47,147 nucleotides of DNA, from sequence record PZ787336.1; one strand, written 5' to 3'. Position 1 is the stretch's first letter. The number at the start of each line of letters is the position of its first letter. The notes beneath the pieces were generated by a model, which searched no databases, was not told the origin of the DNA, and saw nothing but the letters and a program-made list of their open reading frames with translations. The DNA is from a phage. A program made the translations under genes and the position numbers. Positions 10,135 through 29,363 of this stretch are shown piece after piece.

Positions 10135-10931
10135 TGATGGTCCACTATTACAATGAGTGGGACAAGGGCGCAGCGGCATGGCTGCGTGAATTAATTAACA
10201 ATAAACTAATTCCTTACGGATATGTCGATGAACGATCAATCACCGAAGTCACCCCTTCAGACCTGGAAGGATTTACACAGTGTCACTTCTTTGCCGGAAT
10301 CGGAGGGTGGCCCCTTGCACTCCAGCTGGCAGGAATACCAGAAAGCACTCGACTCTGGACAGGATCACCACCTTGCCAGCCGTTTAGCGTTGCCGGTAAG
10401 TCTCTCGGATTTGACGACGATCGACACCTTGCCCCAGCATTTCTCAGGCTCATCAGAGAGTGCAAGCCTGAATTGCTGTTTGGAGAGCAGGTTGCAGCAG
10501 CAATTGGGAAGCACTGGCTCGATTTTGTATTCCTTAACCTGGAAGACAAAGGCTACGCCTGCGGGGCGTCAGTATTGCCAGCTTGCAGCGTCGGCTCTCC
10601 ACAGGAAAGGAAAAGAATCATCTTTGGCGCGAGGATGGGCGACACCAACGGCGCGAGGATGGAAGGATTACGGGAATCTCAGCAAGTCATTTTACAGAAA
10701 GGACGGGAAATTCAGGAACGATACTCTTTATCGCCAGATGTGGCTTCATGTTTATGGGATTCATGGAAACCCAACCATGGAGCAGATAAGGAAACTAGAG
10801 TCATACCAGGCGGATTTTGCGAGGCAACTCATGGGGTATCCGCAAGAGTGGGACGATTGCGCGGTTATGGTAATGCCATAGTTCCACAAGTCGCAGCAGA
10901 ATTCATTAAAGCATTCATGAGGTCCGTTTAA
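10131..10931 (+). CDS. DNA cytosine-5 methyltransferase (orphan); reading frame in the middle part uncertain
   Basis: motifs FAGIGG (I), PPCQPFS (IV), SPQERKRIIF (VIII), GNAIVP (X) in this frame; RQLMGYPQEW (motif IX-like) lies in the overlapping frame 10222..10881. Confidence 0.75.
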   Translation: MMMVHYYNEWDKGAAAWLRELINNKLIPYGYVDERSITEVTPSDLEGFTQCHFFAGIGGWPLALQLAGIPESTRLWTGSPPCQPFSVAGKSLGFDDDRHLAPAFLRLIRECKPELLFGEQVAAAIGKHWLDFVFLNLEDKGYACGASVLPACSVGSPQERKRIIFGARMGDTNGARMEGLRESQQVILQKGREIQERYSLSPDVASCLWDSWKPNHGADKETRVIPGGFCEATHGVSARVGRLRGYGNAIVPQVAAEFIKAFMRSV

Positions 10932-15558: not shown

Positions 15559-15817
15559 TTAGTACGTCCTCAGCAAGTTTGCGGAACATGATTTGCACTC
15601 TTGCCACTTTGCGCCACTCAGCTTCGGTGAGAATCACATCCTCCTGCTGCGGAATTCCCGACATTTCGCATGGCGGTAATGGCTCATACTCTTGCTTCTT
15701 GCGTTTGGCTTTTCCCATGCTGACCTCTTGCGCTGCGAAGAAGTAAATTAAACAGGTTGCTGACATTAACCTCCTGCTCATGCCATGAGTAACGCCACAG
15801 CTTCTTGTGGTGGTCAT
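15542..15817 (-). CDS. hypothetical protein (start uncertain; may begin at internal Met)
   Basis: ORF begins inside a 19-bp tandem duplication. Confidence 0.4.
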   Translation of the reverse strand: MTTTRSCGVTHGMSRRLMSATCLIYFFAAQEVSMGKAKRKKQEYEPLPPCEMSGIPQQEDVILTEAEWRKVARVQIMFRKLAEDVLNEMGY

Positions 15818-15842
15818 AGCTTCTTGTGGTGGTCATAGCTTC
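15799..15842. repeat. perfect 19-bp tandem direct repeat (agcttcttgtggtggtcat x2 plus partial third copy)
   Basis: two identical adjacent copies at 15799-15817 and 15818-15836 straddling a gene boundary. Confidence 0.6.
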
Positions 15843-16245
15843 GCGTCACATCACCGTTATGAAACATAATGCGGATGCGGCTTTTCACGATGCGATAATC
15901 AATGCCAGTGGTGGTACTGATTTCTTTCACTTCCGCGCCAGCGTTATCAAGCAAATGGCACTTAATAGCATCATCAATACCGGCTGCATCATCAGAGATG
16001 AAATATTTATACTGCCACTTGCCGCCGCGAATCACTGACTTCTCGCGACGAATGAATCCAAGAGCAAGCATCTCATGTAAGCGATGCGTTGTGGTGCTTG
16101 AATGCTTACCTCCGCAATGCTTCTCAATGTATGCGCGCGTTGCTCCGGGGTGATTCATAATCACGCGCATGATTTGTGATTTATAGTCCATAATCACGCT
16201 CCTCTGCTGCCTGATTGAAGTCGTCGGAAGTGTAGAGGTGTCCAC
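15814..16245 (-). CDS. hypothetical protein, possibly truncated by the tandem duplication
   Basis: 143 aa; stop codon lies in the second repeat copy. Confidence 0.45.
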   Translation of the reverse strand: MDTSTLPTTSIRQQRSVIMDYKSQIMRVIMNHPGATRAYIEKHCGGKHSSTTTHRLHEMLALGFIRREKSVIRGGKWQYKYFISDDAAGIDDAIKCHLLDNAGAEVKEISTTTGIDYRIVKSRIRIMFHNGDVTRSYDHHKKL

Positions 16246-16426
16246 CTCTTGTGTTCCATTTCTTCATTGCCGTGGATGCGCAGCAATACGAGTCAGTGCG
16301 GCAAAAACAATCTCCGCACTCAACGTGCAACCATTCGCCGTCATCAATAACACTTACGTCATCACAACCACAAAACGGGCATTCAAGTAATTTCTCATCG
16401 TTCATTAGTAGTGTCATATTGCTCAC
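16181..16426 (-). CDS. Lar-like restriction alleviation protein (zinc-ribbon)
   Basis: 81 aa with CPFCG...C..C pattern and C-terminal KKWNTR, as in Lar-family proteins. Confidence 0.5.
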   Translation of the reverse strand: MSNMTLLMNDEKLLECPFCGCDDVSVIDDGEWLHVECGDCFCRTDSYCCASTAMKKWNTRGGHLYTSDDFNQAAEERDYGL

Positions 16427-16933
16427 CTTTTGTATTCAAAAATTTCCCGTGAACCATCTTTATGAGCCTGTTCCTCTCCTCTTTTGCTTGTGTTATTGAC
16501 GAGAATCTACCTCCATAATAATGCTTGCCATTGGCTGTAATTTGAACCCTCCACCTTTCTCGCGAAGAGTCCCAAACAACATCCTTAACTCCGCTTGTAT
16601 TATTGTTTTTCACGCCTACATTCATAACATTTTGACCTCTTGTGACCAATCTTAGGTTGCTGATGCGATTATCTTTCTTGTTCCCATTTATGTAATCAAT
16701 CTCATATCCGTTTGGTATATCTCCATTGCAAACAATCCACGCCATTCTGTGTGCGTAAAACCTCCCGATGGGGAGTTGAATTCTCCAATACCCATGCGAT
16801 GTAATACCTCCAGCCACCTTCCCTTTCTTTGATTTTCTTGAGAAATATCAATCCATAGAAAGTTTCCTGTATTTTCATCATACTGGAGGAACTTTAAAAT
16901 GCTTTCCTGACTAATGTTGCTCATTTCAACCAT
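16395..16933 (-). CDS. HNH-AP2 homing endonuclease, apparent frameshift
   Basis: N-terminal part (LQYDENTGNFLW...) in ORF 16688..16933, HNH (GYEIDYINGNKKDNRISNLR) and AP2 parts in ORF 16395..16817; frames differ by one base at a short A-run near 16819. Confidence 0.65.
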
Positions 16934-17472: not shown

Positions 17473-17679
17473 ATGCCAAGACCACGACGCGAGCCGATGG
17501 ACATTATCACCAGCATTGTGGAGAAGCGACAACCGCTGACACTCCGTGATGTTCGCTACTTCGCCCGTTGCTATGTGGCGCTGGCTGATATGCCTAAGGA
17601 AGATATGTATGATTTGATTCGGGCCAACTTCAGTGTTGACGAGAATAATAGAGTGACAATGAAAGAGGATGAGAAATGA
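17473..17679 (+). CDS. hypothetical protein
   Basis: 68 aa ORF with GAAGGAG RBS. Confidence 0.45.
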   Translation: MPRPRREPMDIITSIVEKRQPLTLRDVRYFARCYVALADMPKEDMYDLIRANFSVDENNRVTMKEDEK

Positions 17680-18186
17680 GGCATAGGAGAGATGAGCCGA
17701 GTAGGGAGTTTATATTGAGTTACCTTTACTACAATCCACTAACTGGGGAATTTAAATGGCTAAAGACAAGGAATAGGATTGCAGAAAAGGGAGTGTGGCT
17801 GGCTACTTAAAGCCAGATGGATATGTGCAAATAATTCTTTGCGGTAGGGCTTTTCTTGCTCACAGATTGGCATGGATATGCATTCATGGCGCGCCAGCAA
17901 GTGAAATGATTGACCACATAATGGCATTCGCAATGACAACAGGGCGTGCAATTTAAGGGAGGCCAGCAAATTTGAGAATAGCCACAACAAAGCAATGAAC
18001 AAAAACAACACTAGCGGTATCAAGGGGGTTAACTGGAGTTCATCGCACAACAAGTGGCATGCAAGAGTTGGAGTAAATGGCAAAAGATTCACAGTTGGTT
18101 ACTTTTCCGACATAAGAGAAGCAGAAGCAAAAATAAAAGAATTCAGGAGAATGCATCACAATGAGTTCACAAATCACGGGCGATAA
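17676..18186 (+). CDS. HNH-AP2 homing endonuclease, two apparent frameshifts
   Basis: N-terminal YYNPLTGEFKW in frame 1, GYLKPDGYVQI...AHRLAW...IDHI in a second frame, AP2 domain (GIKGVNWSSSHNKWHARVGVNGKRFTVGYF) in ORF 17995..18186; shifts at aaaaggg (17785-17791) and ataatgg (17918-17924). Confidence 0.65.
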
Positions 18187-19130: not shown

Positions 19131-19156
19131 AAAGCCCCATCACGGGGCTTTTTTAT
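19131..19156. terminator. bidirectional rho-independent terminator
   Basis: GCCCCatcacGGGGC followed by tttttt, preceded by A-run. Confidence 0.65.
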
Positions 19157-19631
19157 TACGCAGAGAATTATACTGTGCCTCACACGTCAATCCTGCCTCT
19201 CTCGCCCTGTCAGCGTAATCTGCCAGCTGTTGATTTCTTTCGACAGATTTGCGGAGCACGTCTGCAAGCAAAACTCCGGTTTCTGCGGCTGGGTTGCCAA
19301 TGGACTCAGCGGTGGAATATCCGACGAGCTGCTTGCGGATACTGGTGAGTTGTTGCTGCAACCTGCCAGACTTAGCGACAGCATTAACAGCATCATTGCG
19401 CGCAGCATCAATCCTTTGCTGTGCGTCGGCCTGAATCTTTTGCAGTTCTGCATTGCGTCGTTGCTCCTCTTGTTCGTCTGCGGCCTTCTGTTCTGCGACT
19501 GCCTTCGCGTATCCGGCGGCATATTGTTGCTCGCCATAACCGGACACTTTATTTGCCACCCACAACGCGCCAGCGGCAACAATTATAATAATTGCCAGCG
19601 GTCGCCAGTATTTAACGAGAATCGACATCAT
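19140..19631 (-). CDS. Rz: i-spanin (Rz-like)
   Basis: 163 aa, N-terminal transmembrane helix, Ala/Gln/Arg-rich coiled-coil-like periplasmic region; follows endolysin and holin candidate. Confidence 0.65.
   Translation of the reverse strand: MMSILVKYWRPLAIIIIVAAGALWVANKVSGYGEQQYAAGYAKAVAEQKAADEQEEQRRNAELQKIQADAQQRIDAARNDAVNAVAKSGRLQQQLTSIRKQLVGYSTAESIGNPAAETGVLLADVLRKSVERNQQLADYADRAREAGLTCEAQYNSLRNKKAP
19187..19408 (-). CDS. Rz1: o-spanin (Rz1-like lipoprotein) embedded in the Rz gene in another frame
   Basis: MLRAMMLLMLSLSLAGC signal with LAGC lipobox, Pro-rich mature part, fully nested in 19140..19631. Confidence 0.5.
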   Translation of the reverse strand: MLRAMMLLMLSLSLAGCSNNSPVSASSSSDIPPLSPLATQPQKPEFCLQTCSANLSKEINSWQITLTGRERQD

Positions 19632-19851
19632 TGCGCAGCCTCCGGTTTTCCTTCCTCATGCCGTGCATTTTGCCGAGGATGCCGACAAGCATAATTGAGT
19701 AACTCACACCTTTGACCACGATTGGCGGTAGCGCTGCTTTCAGGTCATCCGGCATCATTACCCACACATGCATCATTGCATCAGGCCATAGTTGTAACAG
19801 CGAGCAGAATGAAATCCACGCGGCGAGCAGCCAGTTGCTTAGCTTTTTCAT
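19612..19851 (-). CDS. putative holin (two transmembrane segments, charged C-terminus)
   Basis: 79 aa membrane protein between endolysin and Rz; ATG overlaps the endolysin stop (ATGA). Confidence 0.4.
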   Translation of the reverse strand: MKKLSNWLLAAWISFCSLLQLWPDAMMHVWVMMPDDLKAALPPIVVKGVSYSIMLVGILGKMHGMRKENRRLRNDVDSR

Positions 19852-20311
19852 GCCACAGCTCCGCCAGCCTCTTTGTATACCTGAATCAGCTTATCCAGCT
19901 TCTGCTCATGCTGACCATACCCAGCGCCCGGCAATGAGGCCCAGCGGGAGCGGCATTTATGGATGGCATCAGCAATGCGACCAGCCTCAATATCAGCGGT
20001 GGCCTTGCATTCACGGATTAGCTGCATTGCAATGGCGTCCTGCGATGCGGGGAGAAGTCCGGTAAACGCAATTGCTTTTTGTACGCATCATAAAACTTAG
20101 CCAGTACCTGATAGCGACCGGCGGCGGTGGATTTAATGCCCAGCCTTGGCAGGCTAATCAGCTTGCGCGGGTGGTCGGAATAGTCGGTAAACAGTGAGCC
20201 GCCAACAATCACATCATAACCATGATTATTGGTTTTCTGCCGCCCGTTATCAGTGCCCTCGCTGTACGCCAGCATATCCAGAAACGCCTTCATGTTTTTA
20301 CTAATAGCCAT
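19848..20311 (-). CDS. endolysin, lambda R-like lytic transglycosylase, apparent -1 frameshift
   Basis: N-terminal KAFLDMLAYSEGTDNGRQKTNNHGYDVIVGG...DFSP closely matches lambda R; the C-terminal SQDAIAMQ...WASLPGAGYGQHE continues in another frame after a C4 run (plus 20049-20052). Confidence 0.8.
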
Positions 20312-20579
20312 ACCAGTAAACCTCTTTTTCAGCTTTGCGTTTTGCTTTGTCGCCAGTCTTCTCGCCCCACGCGATGAAATGCGCAACAGCACATGAGAAG
20401 CAGCGGAGGTTGTGCTTCTTCAGAAGCGTTGATTTACGGAACGCGTAAATGCCAATGTCGGTGGCAAGACTTGCCAGCGCGTCGAACTGATTCTGCGTTG
20501 TCTCGGTAGTGATGTAAGGCGATACATCCACGGCATCGGTAATTCCAAACGTCTCCACGCCTCGTTGCGATAGTTTCAT
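20301..20579 (-). CDS. hypothetical protein upstream of endolysin
   Basis: 92 aa with GGAGG RBS; stop overlaps the endolysin ATG; no clear transmembrane helix, so not called holin. Confidence 0.4.
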   Translation of the reverse strand: MKLSQRGVETFGITDAVDVSPYITTETTQNQFDALASLATDIGIYAFRKSTLLKKHNLRCFSCAVAHFIAWGEKTGDKAKRKAEKEVYWYGY

Positions 20580-21858: not shown

Positions 21859-22946
21859 CTAATTATTCATTATTTCATTCATTAATTCCGGTGAATACTT
21901 TAGCCACTCGGTGCATCCATTGAACCCACTAAGTCCAGCGGACTCATATCTATTATGATAATCGCTCTCCATTGATATTGCATCAACGCCTGAAAGTTTT
22001 ACGTACTTAATCACCTCAAACTCAAATGGCGTACTGCTTCTTAGTTGCATAATGCGTTGCTTTATTTTATTGGTTATCCCCACCTTTATTCCTTTCTCGC
22101 TCATTAGGAAGTAAACATACGATTTCTTATTCTTATCAAATCCTGTTACAGCGCATGATGGACATCCAGAACCTTGTATATGATGTGATGCTCGCTGTAC
22201 GAATACTCCATGGATGGGGCATGTTATTGACACGTTGGAGAGGGAGTTCTTGTAGCCGCACTTATCATAAATGTATTTATCTCCATGGACCGCCATTGAT
22301 TTTCTAGCAAAATCAGCTTCACTATCAGTTTGTGATTTTACTTGCTTGCTCTTACCGCAGGACGGACATCCACATCCAATCAGATGCACTGATGGTTTTT
22401 GCAATAAAACCCCATGAATTTCGCAAAGTATCATTACTTCTTTATTGTTTGCCTCATACTTAACGAGTGAGTAATCATATCTGTCACCATGAATGCCCTT
22501 TGATTTCTCAATAAACAGATCATTGCCAAGAGAATAAGACTTTGCTCTCTTTATGAGTCCGCAGCTAGGGCATCCCTGGCCATGTAAGTGATCTGATGGT
22601 CTTTGTTCAAATTCACCATGTCTTCGACAAACTATTACAACTTTTGATTCGCAATCTTTGTATTTAACTTTCGAGTATTCGTATGTATTAGAATGGATTT
22701 TTTTGCTTTTAATATAAACGATTCTGCATCGCTTCTTTTTGCGTTGCCTCTTCTGATGCACGCACACGCCGGACATCCATTACCAGCTAAATGATTTGAT
22801 GGTGATTGCATAAAATCACCATGCTCGCGACAGGTAATGATGACTTTAGTTTTTGAATTTTTGTAATTAGTCTTTGAATAATCATAACGATCGCCATATC
22901 GACAGATTACTTCAGAGATAAAGCGTGATGTCTTTTCTTTTGACAT
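21859..22946 (-). CDS. homing-endonuclease-like protein with tandem CPxCG zinc-ribbon repeats and C-terminal T5orf172 (GIY-YIG-like) domain, apparent frameshift
   Basis: first repeat unit in ORF 22635..22946, further units and the YVYFLMSEKGIKVGIT...TEW domain in ORF 21859..22776; frames meet at an A7 run (plus T7 at 22698-22704). Confidence 0.6.
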
Positions 22947-25374: not shown

Positions 25375-25420
25375 ATGTCACCAATAAAAAATCCCTCACG
25401 ATGGAGGGATTATAGCATGG

Positions 25421-27309: not shown

Positions 27310-27338
27310 ATACTATGCGCTCGGTGTAGATTTGTCAA
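27310..27338 (-). promoter_or_regulatory. sigma70-like promoter TTGACA-N17-TAGTAT on minus strand
   Basis: plus tgtcaa 27333-27338 and atacta 27310-27315; immediately downstream of the terminase large subunit stop. Confidence 0.5.
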
Positions 27339-27354: not shown

Positions 27355-28779
27355 TTATCGCCTGCGCCGGATTAGCATTCCGCTACCGCGTTGAACGATA
27401 TGGTCATTGAGCGCGTAACGAACCGCATCCCAGAAGTGGTTGAATGCATCAACAATATCGGTCAGCACATTCCCTGTCAGCTTATCAACTTTGTAACTGT
27501 ACATTGCAGCTTCATTCTGTATTTCCTTGCATCGTTCGTGAATGACAATGCTGTCACAGCCGCGTAACCATGTCACGCCATCCTCAACGCTTCCCGGCCA
27601 TTTTGTGCATGGATGAATGTCAAACCCGGAACGCTTGATGTGACTGATGGTTTCTGGTCGAGCGCAGTCTGCATACCATCGTGCGCGCTTAGCCATCGGG
27701 AATGATTGCTCCATCGCCGCTGGCGTATCGGTAATCTCAAGGCCAACCTTGCCATACTCGCGATTAATATAAATGTTGCGCCGTCCGCCTGGTAACTCTT
27801 TGATGTACACTTCAACCATTGCGGTAGGATCGGTGGAAAACCCGAAGTCCATTCCGAAATATGGACCGTGCCATTCAGGTTTGACTTCGAAGTTATCAAT
27901 GCGCCATTTGCCGCCGAAGACCTGCTCATCACTGCGTTTGTTAAATTTGCCTTCCCATATCCACATGTAGCGGTCGAAATCGACGCGCTTCATTTGCTCC
28001 ATAGCGGATGGCAACGGCGTATCCCAGAACCACGGGTTGTCTGAATAGTTACATTCGATAACCAGAATTTCATCGTTTTCGAATATGCCATCAACCATTT
28101 GTGAGTGGTAGGGAGCAATCCAGTTTTTCCATGTCGGGTCTGTATCTTTGTTGGGGTTAAATGAGCACCACAACTCGGAATTAGCAGTACGGATGGTAGG
28201 CACAAGAATATCCCAGCTTGTCTGGCTGACGTTCTCTGCTTCCTCTACCCAGCCAACGGTAATGCCAGCAAAACCCTTGACTGTAGTCTGGTTGCGATAC
28301 AGCCCCTTGAAGCGAAATTTAGCCTTAGTCTTTTTGTGAGTTATCTCGTTGTTGATAACGCGAAACTCTGCCGATTCTCCCTTGCGGGCTATTTCGTCAA
28401 CAAGCTCCTGATAGCTTGAATCCTCAATGGATTGCTGAATCTCGCGAAAGCAGGCGAAGCGGTCAGGACGAAACCTTGCTCGCTCGGTAAGGATAGTGAT
28501 AATCGTTCTTGTCTTACCTGACCCACGACCACCGTAGACAAACTTGAAACGCTTCGGATAAAGCAGTCGCTCCAGTTTTGCCGGAATAAGGTGGTCGGCA
28601 TGAGTGGTTGCATTGGTTACGTCATCAACGCCAGTAGCGGTCATCCTTAACCGCTTAATGACGTTCTTCTGCATGTCGCAGATTCCAAAGATGGCGGACT
28701 CGGCTACTTCGGTCATTGCATCATCAATCTGCGCTTCCAGCTTTTCGATTGCCAGTGCGGATAGGCGTTTACGAGCCAT
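27355..28779 (-). CDS. terminase large subunit
   Basis: Walker A VYGGRGSGKT, conserved size; ATG at 28779; the track ORF starts at a TTG at 28818. Confidence 0.85.
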   Translation of the reverse strand: MARKRLSALAIEKLEAQIDDAMTEVAESAIFGICDMQKNVIKRLRMTATGVDDVTNATTHADHLIPAKLERLLYPKRFKFVYGGRGSGKTRTIITILTERARFRPDRFACFREIQQSIEDSSYQELVDEIARKGESAEFRVINNEITHKKTKAKFRFKGLYRNQTTVKGFAGITVGWVEEAENVSQTSWDILVPTIRTANSELWCSFNPNKDTDPTWKNWIAPYHSQMVDGIFENDEILVIECNYSDNPWFWDTPLPSAMEQMKRVDFDRYMWIWEGKFNKRSDEQVFGGKWRIDNFEVKPEWHGPYFGMDFGFSTDPTAMVEVYIKELPGGRRNIYINREYGKVGLEITDTPAAMEQSFPMAKRARWYADCARPETISHIKRSGFDIHPCTKWPGSVEDGVTWLRGCDSIVIHERCKEIQNEAAMYSYKVDKLTGNVLTDIVDAFNHFWDAVRYALNDHIVQRGSGMLIRRRR

Positions 28780-28919
28780 ATCGAACACGCCCCCAAGCGA
28801 TAACAAATCCTGATACAAGGAACATAGATGCGAATATGCTACCAGCGAAATCCCCTGATGGCATAATGGCGCTAACCATGCTCATAGCGATAGATGCCAC
28901 AAAACACCACGTAACAACA

Positions 28920-29363
28920 TCACGCATTCTGCTGCTCCAGTAATTTCTCCAGTCGCTCAAGTCGCGCTGCGAGTTCGGTGATTTCCTGAATATCAAGGCC
29001 AGACTTGATAATGTCAGCCATCATCTTGCCGATGTCAGCAGGCACGACGCCAGTGGAGACACCCTTGATGATTGCATCCATTTTCTGAACCGGAGTTCCG
29101 TCAGCAGGGAAGTCAAACTCCACAGGAGGAGCTACAGGCTTAGGAATTGGGTTGAGCCGCAGGAATATCTCTCGAAGCATACCAGTTGCCTGAGCGTCTT
29201 CGCATGTCATGGCCCTATTGATGTAATACGTGACGAATTCAATCTCATTCATCGGTGTATTTGCAGCACGAAGCGCCTCAAGCAGCACTGTGCGATAACT
29301 CTTACCGCGCGGAGGCGGTTGATTTGTAGAGGAAAACTTGTGTTTTGGATTTGGATTCGCCAT
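28920..29363 (-). CDS. terminase small subunit
   Basis: 147 aa ORF immediately upstream of the large subunit, C-terminal coiled-coil-like LERLEKLLEQQ; position-based. Confidence 0.6.
   Translation of the reverse strand: MANPNPKHKFSSTNQPPPRGKSYRTVLLEALRAANTPMNEIEFVTYYINRAMTCEDAQATGMLREIFLRLNPIPKPVAPPVEFDFPADGTPVQKMDAIIKGVSTGVVPADIGKMMADIIKSGLDIQEITELAARLERLEKLLEQQNA

What the first reader, a model, noticed from the sequence alone, without database searches (positions are those of the whole stretch)
19848..20311. Lambda R-like endolysin gene is broken by an apparent -1 frameshift
The N-terminal 87 aa (MAISKNMKAFLDMLAYSEGTDNGRQKTNNHGYDVIVGG ... DFSP) match lambda R closely, then the frame runs into HRRTPLQCS-stop. 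The expected continuation SQDAIAMQLIRECKATADIEAGRIADAIHKCRSRWASLPGAGYGQHEQKLDKLIQVYKEAGG is present in full in another frame and ends at a TGA overlapping the next ATG. The shift is at a CCCC run. A lytic phage needs this gene, so the break is either an artefact or unusual biology.
Basis: seen in the sequence. Interest (0 to 1): 0.6.

Follow-up and report, generated by a model that had tools for sequence, protein, structure and literature searches.

The report
One-base deletion breaks phage endolysin gene
An ordinary lambda-type endolysin gene of a Skate-like Salmonella/E. coli phage is split here because one C is missing from a CCCCC run; this is most likely a sequence error, or else a very recent null mutation, and not a recoding signal.

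Summary
On the minus strand, 20311..19848 holds a lambda-R-type (GH104) endolysin gene of 464 nt. It reads 88 native residues, then 9 out-of-frame residues and a TAA. The remaining 66 residues continue in the -1 frame to a TGA that overlaps the holin ATG.

The cause is one missing C in a CCCCC run (codons Ser87-Pro88; plus-strand GGGG 20049-20052). Putting one C back gives a gene that is 465/465 nt identical to phage ST1UNAM, and 154 aa that align end to end with lambda lysozyme.

The C4 allele occurs in none of the collections scanned, and relatives carry the gene in one frame. The run itself is not conserved, because synonymous codons break it. There is no slippery heptamer and no downstream RNA structure. 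Programmed frameshifting is therefore not supported.

The window carries five more private one-base deletions and a 19-nt tandem duplication. These fragment three homing-endonuclease genes and one conserved gene. All lie between 15.8 and 27.3 kb, alongside very few private substitutions.

An error in the record is the best reading (about 0.6). A genuine recent null allele is the main rival (about 0.3), supported by a +1 (C6) allele at the same run in another metagenome. The finding is ordinary and of low interest.

The parts
19848..20311 (-). Lambda-R-type (GH104) endolysin gene as it stands in the window: 464 nt, one base short of the 465 nt seen in relatives
   Evidence: The repaired product aligns with lambda lysozyme PDB 3D3D/1AM7 at E about 7e-62 over residues 3-153. 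The repaired gene is 465/465 nt identical to ST1UNAM.
20049..20052 (-). C4 run (plus-strand GGGG) where one C of the CCCCC in relatives is missing; codons TCC(Ser87) CCG(Pro88)
   Evidence: Alignment. Sixteen related loci with identical flanks all have C5. The C4 23-mer and 20-mer have no hit in IMG/VR.
20018..20311 (-). N-terminal ORF of 97 aa: 88 native residues including the catalytic Glu18 in the SEGT motif, then 9 out-of-frame residues and a TAA at 20020-20018
19848..20048 (-). C-terminal part (Ala89-Ala154, 66 aa plus TGA) in the -1 frame; it contains a 59-aa ORF starting at ATG 20027
   Evidence: This half shows many more synonymous than non-synonymous differences among relatives.
19612..19851 (-). 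Holin-like gene (79 aa, Pfam DUF7940); its ATG overlaps the endolysin TGA as ATGA, so early termination upstream could also lower its expression
   Evidence: annotated as holin in relatives
19140..19631 (-). Rz-like i-spanin (163 aa, DUF2514) with an embedded o-spanin frame (lipobox LSLAGC) at about 19453..19187
   Evidence: phage Skate annotation
20301..20579 (-). Conserved 92-aa GH24-lysozyme relic upstream of the endolysin; it overlaps the endolysin start by 11 nt
   Evidence: It hits Pfam PF00959 only over profile positions 55-114 of 125. It aligns to the 146-aa lysozyme of phage HC6 with an internal gap of about 50 residues that removes the catalytic core.

Best explanation
The window is a complete, circularly permuted genome of a virulent Skate-like siphophage related to Vi II-E1. 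Its lysis cassette on the minus strand runs in this order: 92-aa GH24 relic, lambda-R-type endolysin, holin, Rz/Rz1 spanins. The endolysin gene is an ordinary member of the lambda lysozyme (GH104, lytic transglycosylase) family. In this record it lacks one C from a CCCCC run formed by the codons TCC-CCC (Ser87-Pro88). As written, translation gives a 97-aa fragment that keeps the catalytic Glu but lacks the C-terminal lobe, so the allele would be null. The loss is not a programmed event. It is a non-programmed one-base deletion found only in this sequence. Most probably it arose when the sequence was determined or assembled, in a stretch of locally poor consensus, and the phage itself carries C5 and a normal 154-aa enzyme. 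Shown: the deletion, its uniqueness, the identity of the repaired gene and the absence of recoding signals. Inferred: that the cause is technical rather than mutational.
For: (1) Relatives have C5 and one 465-nt ORF. All 16 loci sharing the flanking 23-mer have C5.
(2) tblastn finds the repaired protein in one place covering at least 80% of it in 641 of 646 phage records, and every row listed is a single piece. All 49 IMG/VR loci are matched in one frame.
(3) The C4 allele is absent from IMG/VR. Every match in the JGI metagenome scan and the GTDB genome scan spans 24 nt, which means five bases between the flanks. The C5 run was confirmed in all but one of those loci. The 97-aa and 124-aa products are not on record.
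(4) Re-inserting one C gives 465/465 nt identity to ST1UNAM. Among relatives, both halves of the gene show many more synonymous than non-synonymous differences.
(5) The same window has other private frame-breaking lesions. One-base deletions lie at about 16847, 17789, 17920 and 22700, and an intergenic one lies at 27310. A 19-nt tandem duplication lies at 15804-15841.
(6) All six one-base events are deletions in runs of identical bases, and there are no private one-base insertions. In 15.5-21.8 kb there are only 4 private substitutions. That excess of indels looks more like a consensus error than evolution.
(7) A published workflow study reports homopolymer frameshift errors in phage assemblies, including a double error that split one gene into three annotations (PMC10438801). 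The HNH gene at 17676-18186 shows the same pattern.
(8) The gene is probably needed. The only other peptidoglycan-hydrolase-type Pfam domains in the window are the 92-aa relic and an NlpC/P60 domain, presumably in a tail protein. The orthologue is 100% intact in at least 60 of 69 records of phage seszw, which include genome-reduced mutants down to 36 kb (PMC9825161).
Against: The lesions are not spread as uniform random errors would be. All lie in 15.8-27.3 kb. Four of the six coding lesions hit three homing-endonuclease genes, which make up about 4.5% of the genome. None hits the roughly 30 kb of large structural and replication genes. That is the pattern expected if selection had filtered real mutations.

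All runs of 6-9 identical bases that could be aligned agree with relatives. A generic error that grows with homopolymer length is therefore not seen, and the artefact would have to be regional, for example low coverage of accessory segments.

Broken alleles of this gene occur elsewhere. A JGI metagenome contig and a 100% identical Logan contig carry C6 at the same run. An ENA contig carries a stop at codon 44. A cluster of six distinct C-terminal fragments called as separate genes exists.

No reads are available, so the cause cannot be shown directly.
Confidence: 0.6

Rival explanations
1. This is a genuine, very recent slippage mutation (C5 to C4) in the phage DNA that was sequenced, giving an endolysin-null or strongly hypomorphic genome. 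Such a genome could persist by complementation in mixed or high-multiplicity populations, as a defective or carrier-state variant, or as a fresh mutation in the sequenced stock. The broken homing-endonuclease genes would then be real decay of dispensable selfish genes.
For: Four of the six coding lesions fall in three homing-endonuclease genes and none falls in the large essential genes. The HNH gene at 16924..16395 also has Tyr in place of the His of the motif EIDHINGNK seen in phage ZCEC08 (that this His is the catalytic HNH residue is my reading of the motif, not a tested result). Long homopolymers are called correctly. The same run carries a +1 allele (C6) in JGI metagenome 3300076537 and in Logan SRR10682468, and a nonsense allele exists in ENA ERZ927417. 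Six distinct C-terminal fragment sequences are on record.
Against: The indel-to-substitution ratio among private differences (five or more indels against 4 substitutions, all one-base events being deletions) is very unlike natural divergence. The gene shows no other change against ST1UNAM, so any mutation would be extremely recent. The orthologue appears to be required in seszw, and no substitute endolysin is encoded. The allele is seen nowhere else. The C6 contigs are short (6.7 kb and 0.9 kb), identical to each other and possibly from one sample, and may themselves be low-coverage errors.
Confidence: 0.32
2. This is programmed -1 ribosomal frameshifting, or another recoding event, at C CCC G that restores a full-length endolysin from the two frames.
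For: The geometry fits. A -1 slip of the Pro-tRNA from CCG to CCC followed by GCA would give exactly ...DFSP-ASQD..., the wild-type sequence and length.
Against: There is no X XXY YYZ heptamer; the zero-frame codons are TTC TCC CCG CAT. The 87 nt downstream fold no better than shuffled sequence (z = +0.30). Among relatives the two-frame layout was seen only in the few broken contigs, and never in the 49 IMG/VR loci or the 641 phage records. The C run is not conserved: relatives use TCC CCA, TCT CCC, TCA CCC, TCT CCT or TCC CCG, always in frame. The variant found elsewhere is +1 (C6), which would need the opposite shift. A text search for endolysin together with programmed ribosomal frameshifting returned nine phage or genome papers. 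None of their titles or abstract openings concerns recoding of an endolysin, and the full texts were not read.
Confidence: 0.02
3. The enzyme is made as two pieces. Ribosomes that terminate at TAA 20020-20018 re-initiate at ATG 20027 (with AGGA 10 nt upstream), and the resulting 59-aa C-terminal fragment complements the 97-aa N-terminal fragment.
For: The ATG lies 7 nt upstream of the stop, and a weak Shine-Dalgarno-like AGGA precedes it. The 59-aa ORF is called as a gene in other broken contigs.
Against: Residues 89-95 would be lost. There is no evidence for fragment complementation in GH104 enzymes. The ATG and the AGGA are ordinary coding sequence that is identical in intact relatives. Gene callers report the 59-aa ORF simply because it is open.
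Confidence: 0.02
4. The C run is a contingency (phase-variable) tract that switches the endolysin on and off.
For: Both -1 (this window) and +1 (L025/L027) alleles exist at the same run.
Against: The tract is only 5 nt long. It is absent, through synonymous substitution, in most relatives examined (22 of 36 IMG/VR loci). About 1200 distinct sequences sit in the cluster led by the 154-aa form, against about 6 fragment sequences.
Confidence: 0.02

Closest known systems
Bacteriophage lambda R lysozyme (lytic transglycosylase, GH104; PDB 1AM7 and 3D3D)
   Same: The repaired 154-aa product aligns over residues 3-153 at E about 7e-62, including the SEGTDNGRQKT segment that holds the catalytic Glu. 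It is about 66% identical to lambda and HK97 R and about 58% identical to the phage P2 lysin. It sits in a lysis cassette with a holin and Rz/Rz1.
   Different: The gene order is endolysin then holin, rather than S-R-Rz. A 92-aa GH24 relic precedes it. In this record the ORF is interrupted by a one-base deletion.
Endolysin of Salmonella phage vB_SenS_ST1UNAM (WEV89066.1, OQ469755.1 6778-7242) and the orthologues in phages Skate (gp16), ZCEC08 and seszw
   Same: It is 465/465 nt identical to the ST1UNAM gene once one C is restored, and the neighbouring genes are the same.
   Different: Those records have CCCCC and one ORF. The window has CCCC and two frames.
Frameshift errors at homopolymers in phage genome assemblies (PMC10438801)
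   Same: These are one-base indels in runs that split otherwise conserved genes, including a gene split into three pieces by two errors, as seen at window 17676-18186.
   Different: Here the longest runs (T9, T8, A7) are correct and the lesions cluster in 11.5 kb and in accessory genes. A simple error model that depends on run length does not fit genome-wide.
Programmed -1 frameshifting of phage tail-assembly chaperones (lambda G/GT)
   Same: Two overlapping frames could be joined by a -1 slip.
   Different: In G/GT the slippery heptamer and the two-frame layout are conserved across relatives (established knowledge). Here neither is present.

Membership tests
Lambda-type lysozyme / GH104 lytic transglycosylase (lambda R) | End-to-end sequence similarity to solved lambda lysozyme | tested here: met
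No Pfam or NCBIfam model matched. Two of the closely similar proteins on record (cluster 2) are named glycoside hydrolase family 104 protein.
Lambda-type lysozyme / GH104 lytic transglycosylase (lambda R) | Catalytic Glu (lambda E19) in the conserved SEGT segment | tested here: met
   The query AYSEGTDNGRQKT aligns to lambda AWSEGTDNGRQKT. That puts Glu18, which lies in the N-terminal fragment, opposite lambda Glu19.
Lambda-type lysozyme / GH104 lytic transglycosylase (lambda R) | A single uninterrupted ORF of about 150-160 aa encoding both lobes | tested here: not met
   The window gene is 464 nt: a 97-aa ORF plus a remainder in the -1 frame. As written it is a disrupted member (pseudogene or error) of the family.
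Lambda-type lysozyme / GH104 lytic transglycosylase (lambda R) | Lysis-cassette context (holin and spanins adjacent) | tested here: met
   A holin-like DUF7940 gene and a DUF2514 Rz-like spanin lie immediately downstream. Relatives carry the same annotations.
Lambda-type lysozyme / GH104 lytic transglycosylase (lambda R) | Transglycosylase activity on peptidoglycan | not testable with these tools
   This needs an enzyme assay.
Programmed -1 ribosomal frameshift site | Slippery heptamer X XXY YYZ in the zero frame | tested here: not met
   The zero-frame codons are GAC TTC TCC CCG CAT. No heptamer of that form spans the junction.
Programmed -1 ribosomal frameshift site | Stimulatory RNA structure downstream | tested here: not met
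   The 87 nt downstream have an MFE of -25.3 kcal/mol against a shuffled mean of -26.3, z = +0.30.
Programmed -1 ribosomal frameshift site | Two-frame architecture and slip site conserved in relatives | tested here: not met
   The gene is in one frame in 641 of 646 phage records and in all 49 IMG/VR loci. The run is broken by synonymous codons in 22 of 36 loci examined.
Phase-variable contingency tract | A long, conserved homopolymer with on and off length variants in populations | tested here: not met
   The run is only C5 and is not conserved. Length variants do exist, C4 here and C6 in L025/L027, but they are rare.

The most novel reading that the evidence does not exclude
The frameshift is real, and the C run of the R-type endolysin is a recurrent slippage site. 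Skate-like phages would then reach consensus frequency in natural samples with this enzyme switched off: C4 here, C6 in a JGI metagenome, and a nonsense allele in an ENA metagenome. That would imply complementation in mixed infections, a lysis-defective carrier state, or an alternative lysis route, for example one involving the conserved 92-aa GH24 relic.
Probability: 0.08. Interest if true: 0.45.

Novelty: not a real feature. Interest (0 to 1): 0.1.

Why it matters
The main value is for annotation. The gene should be flagged as a frameshifted or low-quality endolysin and repaired or re-sequenced. It should not be reported as recoding or as a phage without an endolysin. If reads showed the C4 allele and the other lesions to be genuine, the record would describe a lysis-defective variant with decaying homing endonucleases. 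That would be of modest interest for phage population biology and would count against using this isolate for therapy or biocontrol.

Tried and rejected
- Programmed -1 frameshifting was rejected: no heptamer, no downstream structure, and no conservation of the layout or of the run.
- A second endolysin elsewhere in the window was looked for. A Pfam scan of 73 further ORFs found only an NlpC/P60 hit, presumably a minor tail protein (the member was not identified), besides the 92-aa relic.
- Tracing the source record failed. There is no match for the C4 23-mer or 20-mer in IMG/VR and no C4 match in JGI metagenomes or GTDB genomes. The 15.5-20.7 kb region has no match in complete E. coli genomes or PLSDB plasmids. 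The window's 97-aa and 124-aa fragments, its portal protein and its spanin allele are not on record.
- A genome-wide homopolymer-undercall model was rejected, because all alignable runs of 6-9 bases agree with relatives.
- Base composition does not explain where the lesions cluster.
- I checked by eye whether the deletions sit at Cas9 cut sites, as in the seszw CRISPR genome-reduction mutants. This fits two sites but not the endolysin site, so I dropped it.

Full report
**What is there**

The feature lies on the minus strand. From ATG 20311 the frame reads MAISKNMKAFLDMLAYSEGTDNGRQK...LRLPDFSP (88 residues), then HRRTPLQCS, and stops at TAA 20020-20018. This is a 97-aa ORF.

The -1 frame, re-using G20048, reads ASQDAIAMQLIRECKATADIEAGRIADAIHKCRSRWASLPGAGYGQHEQKLDKLIQVYKEAGGAVA. 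It stops at TGA 19850-19848, which overlaps the ATG of the next gene as ATGA. The junction is the minus-strand run CCCC, which is plus-strand GGGG at 20049-20052.

**Context**

The window is a whole, circularly permuted genome of 47,147 bp. It has no Ns and no terminal repeat, and its two ends abut on the map of the closest relative.

It belongs to the virulent Skate-like siphophages of Salmonella and E. coli that resemble Vi II-E1. The closest records are Salmonella phage vB_SenS_ST1UNAM and Escherichia phage ZCEC08, followed by HC6, Skate and seszw.

The lysis cassette on the minus strand has four parts:
- a 92-aa GH24-like gene at 20579..20301;
- the lambda-R-like gene;
- a 79-aa holin-like gene (DUF7940) at 19851..19612;
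- an Rz-like spanin (DUF2514) at 19631..19140, with an embedded o-spanin frame.

**Cause of the break**

Relatives annotate a single 465-nt, 154-aa gene at this position. Alignment shows that they have TTC TCC CCC GCA TCG where the window has TTC TCC CCG CAT CG. One C of a C5 run is missing.

Re-inserting it gives a gene that is 465/465 nt identical to ST1UNAM. The product aligns over residues 3-153 with lambda lysozyme (PDB 3D3D and 1AM7, E about 7e-62), including the SEGT segment with the catalytic Glu. Against more distant relatives, both halves of the gene show many more synonymous than non-synonymous differences, for example 27 against 4 for phage Skate. The C-terminal half is therefore functional coding sequence in the family.

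**Is the break shared?**

It is not shared. Several searches agree:
- All 16 fetched loci with the same flanks have C5.
- The C4 23-mer and 20-mer have no match in IMG/VR.
- A pattern that allows C4 or C5 gave only 24-nt matches in JGI metagenomes (6 loci) and GTDB genomes (1 locus), that is five bases between the flanks. The C5 run was confirmed in all but one of those loci.
- tblastn finds the repaired protein in one place covering at least 80% of it in 641 of 646 phage records, with a single piece in every listed row.
- All 49 IMG/VR loci are matched in one frame.
- The truncated products are not on record among about 15 billion proteins.

**Recoding**

Nothing supports programmed frameshifting.
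- There is no X XXY YYZ heptamer.
- The 87 nt downstream fold no better than shuffled sequence (z = +0.30).
- The run itself is an accident of synonymous codon choice. Among 36 IMG/VR relatives, only 14 have TCC CCC. The rest use TCC CCA, TCT CCC, TCA CCC, TCT CCT or TCC CCG, always in frame.

**Is the gene needed?**

A Pfam scan of 73 further window ORFs found only one other peptidoglycan-hydrolase-type domain. This was an NlpC/P60 hit, presumably a minor tail protein.

The 92-aa gene matches Pfam Phage_lysozyme only over profile positions 55-114 of 125. It aligns to the 146-aa GH24 lysozyme that phage HC6 carries at the same locus, but with an internal gap of about 50 residues. That gap removes the FEG...D...TxGYGHT catalytic core.

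In the Skatevirus seszw, CRISPR-based genome reduction removed up to about 10 kb (PMC9825161). The R-like lysin is 100% intact in at least 60 of the 69 seszw records, including the 36-kb mutants. In contrast, the viable mutant seszw_30L carries a one-base deletion in the 92-aa gene. From this I infer that the R-like enzyme is the working endolysin and that the allele as written would be null. Early termination could also reduce translation of the holin, whose start is coupled to the endolysin stop through the ATGA overlap.

**Other lesions in the window**

Comparison with relatives shows further private, frame-breaking events:
- A 19-nt tandem duplication, AAGCTATGACCACCACAAG twice (minus strand, 15841..15804), truncates a conserved 162-aa gene.
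- A one-base deletion at about 16847 lies in an HNH endonuclease gene (16924..16395). That gene also has Tyr in place of the His of the motif EIDHINGNK seen in ZCEC08.
- Two one-base deletions, A5 to A4 at about 17789 and TT to T at about 17920, split a second HNH gene (17676..18186) into three ORFs.
- A one-base deletion at about 22700 splits a 362-aa endonuclease gene into ORFs of 103 and 305 aa.
- An intergenic TT-to-T deletion lies at 27310.

All six one-base events, including the endolysin one, are deletions in runs of identical bases. There are no private one-base insertions with conserved flanks. In 15.5-21.8 kb there are only four private substitutions. A six-frame comparison with four complete relatives and with the partial loci fetched up to that point (L001-L018) found no convincing frame break in a long conserved gene elsewhere in the genome.

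**Weighing artefact against real mutation**

Four observations favour an artefact:
- The indel-to-substitution ratio and the deletion-only bias are unlike natural divergence and typical of consensus errors. A published phage-assembly study describes exactly such errors, including a gene split in three (PMC10438801).
- The endolysin gene has no other change.
- The gene appears to be essential.
- The allele is unique to this record.

Three observations favour a real mutation:
- The lesions cluster in 11.5 kb. Four of the six coding lesions hit homing-endonuclease genes, which are dispensable and make up about 4.5% of the genome. None hits the large essential genes.
- All alignable runs of 6-9 bases are correct. 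Any technical cause must therefore be regional, for example low coverage of accessory segments in a mixed sample or a patched region, rather than a general homopolymer problem.
- Broken alleles exist elsewhere. The 59-aa C-terminal ORF is called as a separate gene in three contigs. Two of them (JGI 3300076537 and Logan SRR10682468) are 100% identical to each other and may come from one sample. Both have C6 at the same run. The third (ENA ERZ927417) has a stop at codon 44. Six distinct fragment sequences are on record, against about 1200 distinct sequences in the cluster led by the 154-aa form.

I put about 0.6 on an error in the record, about 0.3 on a genuine recent null allele, and a few per cent in total on recoding, a split enzyme or phase variation.

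**Comparison with what is known, and verdict**

The gene is a member of the lambda R / GH104 family in every respect tested except that its ORF is interrupted. It fails every defining feature of a programmed frameshift site. The finding is a correct observation of an ordinary defect, with low interest and no novelty. Only reads or re-sequencing can settle whether the defect lies in the record or in the phage.

Noticed in passing
window 15804-15841 (minus strand), within the gene at about 16245..15684: A 19-nt perfect tandem duplication (AAGCTATGACCACCACAAG twice) is absent from six relatives. It shifts the frame of a conserved 162-aa gene, annotated 'transcription factor' in ST1UNAM, and truncates it to 143 aa. 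It could be an assembly-join artefact or a real duplication.
   Followed up: partly
window 16395-16924 (minus strand): An HNH homing-endonuclease gene, about 99% identical to ZCEC08 10331-10861, is split into two frames by a one-base deletion (AA to A) at about 16847. It also has Tyr where ZCEC08 has the His of EIDHINGNK.
   Followed up: partly
window 17676-18186 (plus strand): A second HNH homing-endonuclease gene is split into three ORFs (44, 53 and 63 aa) by two one-base deletions, A5 to A4 at about 17789 and TT to T at about 17920, relative to ST1UNAM and ZCEC08.
   Followed up: yes
window 21859-22946 (minus strand): A 362-aa endonuclease gene that is intact in phages AB4P2 and 64795_sal3 is split into 103-aa and 305-aa ORFs by a one-base deletion at about 22700. 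There the relatives' AAAAGAAA or AAAACAA is a pure 7-base run in the window. One ORF in this half of the window hits Pfam T5orf172, MUG113 and DUF723, probably this gene.
   Followed up: partly
window 20301-20579 (minus strand): The 92-aa 'lysozyme' upstream of the endolysin is an internally deleted GH24 lysozyme. About 50 residues, including the catalytic core, are missing compared with the 146-aa lysozyme that HC6-type relatives carry at this locus instead of the two-gene arrangement. It is still conserved, free of stops and under moderate purifying selection (pN/pS about 0.14-0.33). It tolerates a frameshift in the viable mutant seszw_30L. Its function is unknown.
   Followed up: partly
L025 2715-3180 (JGI 3300076537), L027 (Logan SRR10682468), L026 907-1371 (ENA ERZ927417): Other assemblies of related phages also carry broken R-like endolysin genes. 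Two contigs that are identical to each other have C6 at the same run. One has a stop at codon 44. Six distinct C-terminal fragment sequences are on record.
   Followed up: partly
window 27310: An intergenic one-base deletion (TT to T), relative to five relatives, lies just downstream of a promoter-like TTGACA-17 nt-TAGTAT on the minus strand, upstream of a 68-aa gene. The promoter reading is by eye only.
   Followed up: no
window 25386-25412: Relative to ST1UNAM and ZCEC08, one base is missing from each arm of a terminator-like hairpin (AATCCC[A]TCAC...TGGA[T]GGGATT). This is a compensatory pair and looks like natural variation, in contrast with the isolated coding deletions.
   Followed up: no
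window 27355-29363: Relatives have a roughly 170-aa HNH gene next to the large terminase gene. Its only tblastn matches in the window (about 40-53% identity) fall on the two broken HNH genes at 16.4-18.2 kb. The terminase region is only partly alignable with ST1UNAM, at about 81% identity. One ORF in the second half of the window (20.7-46.9 kb) has a weak Pfam HNH hit (PF01844); I did not determine which ORF.
   Followed up: no
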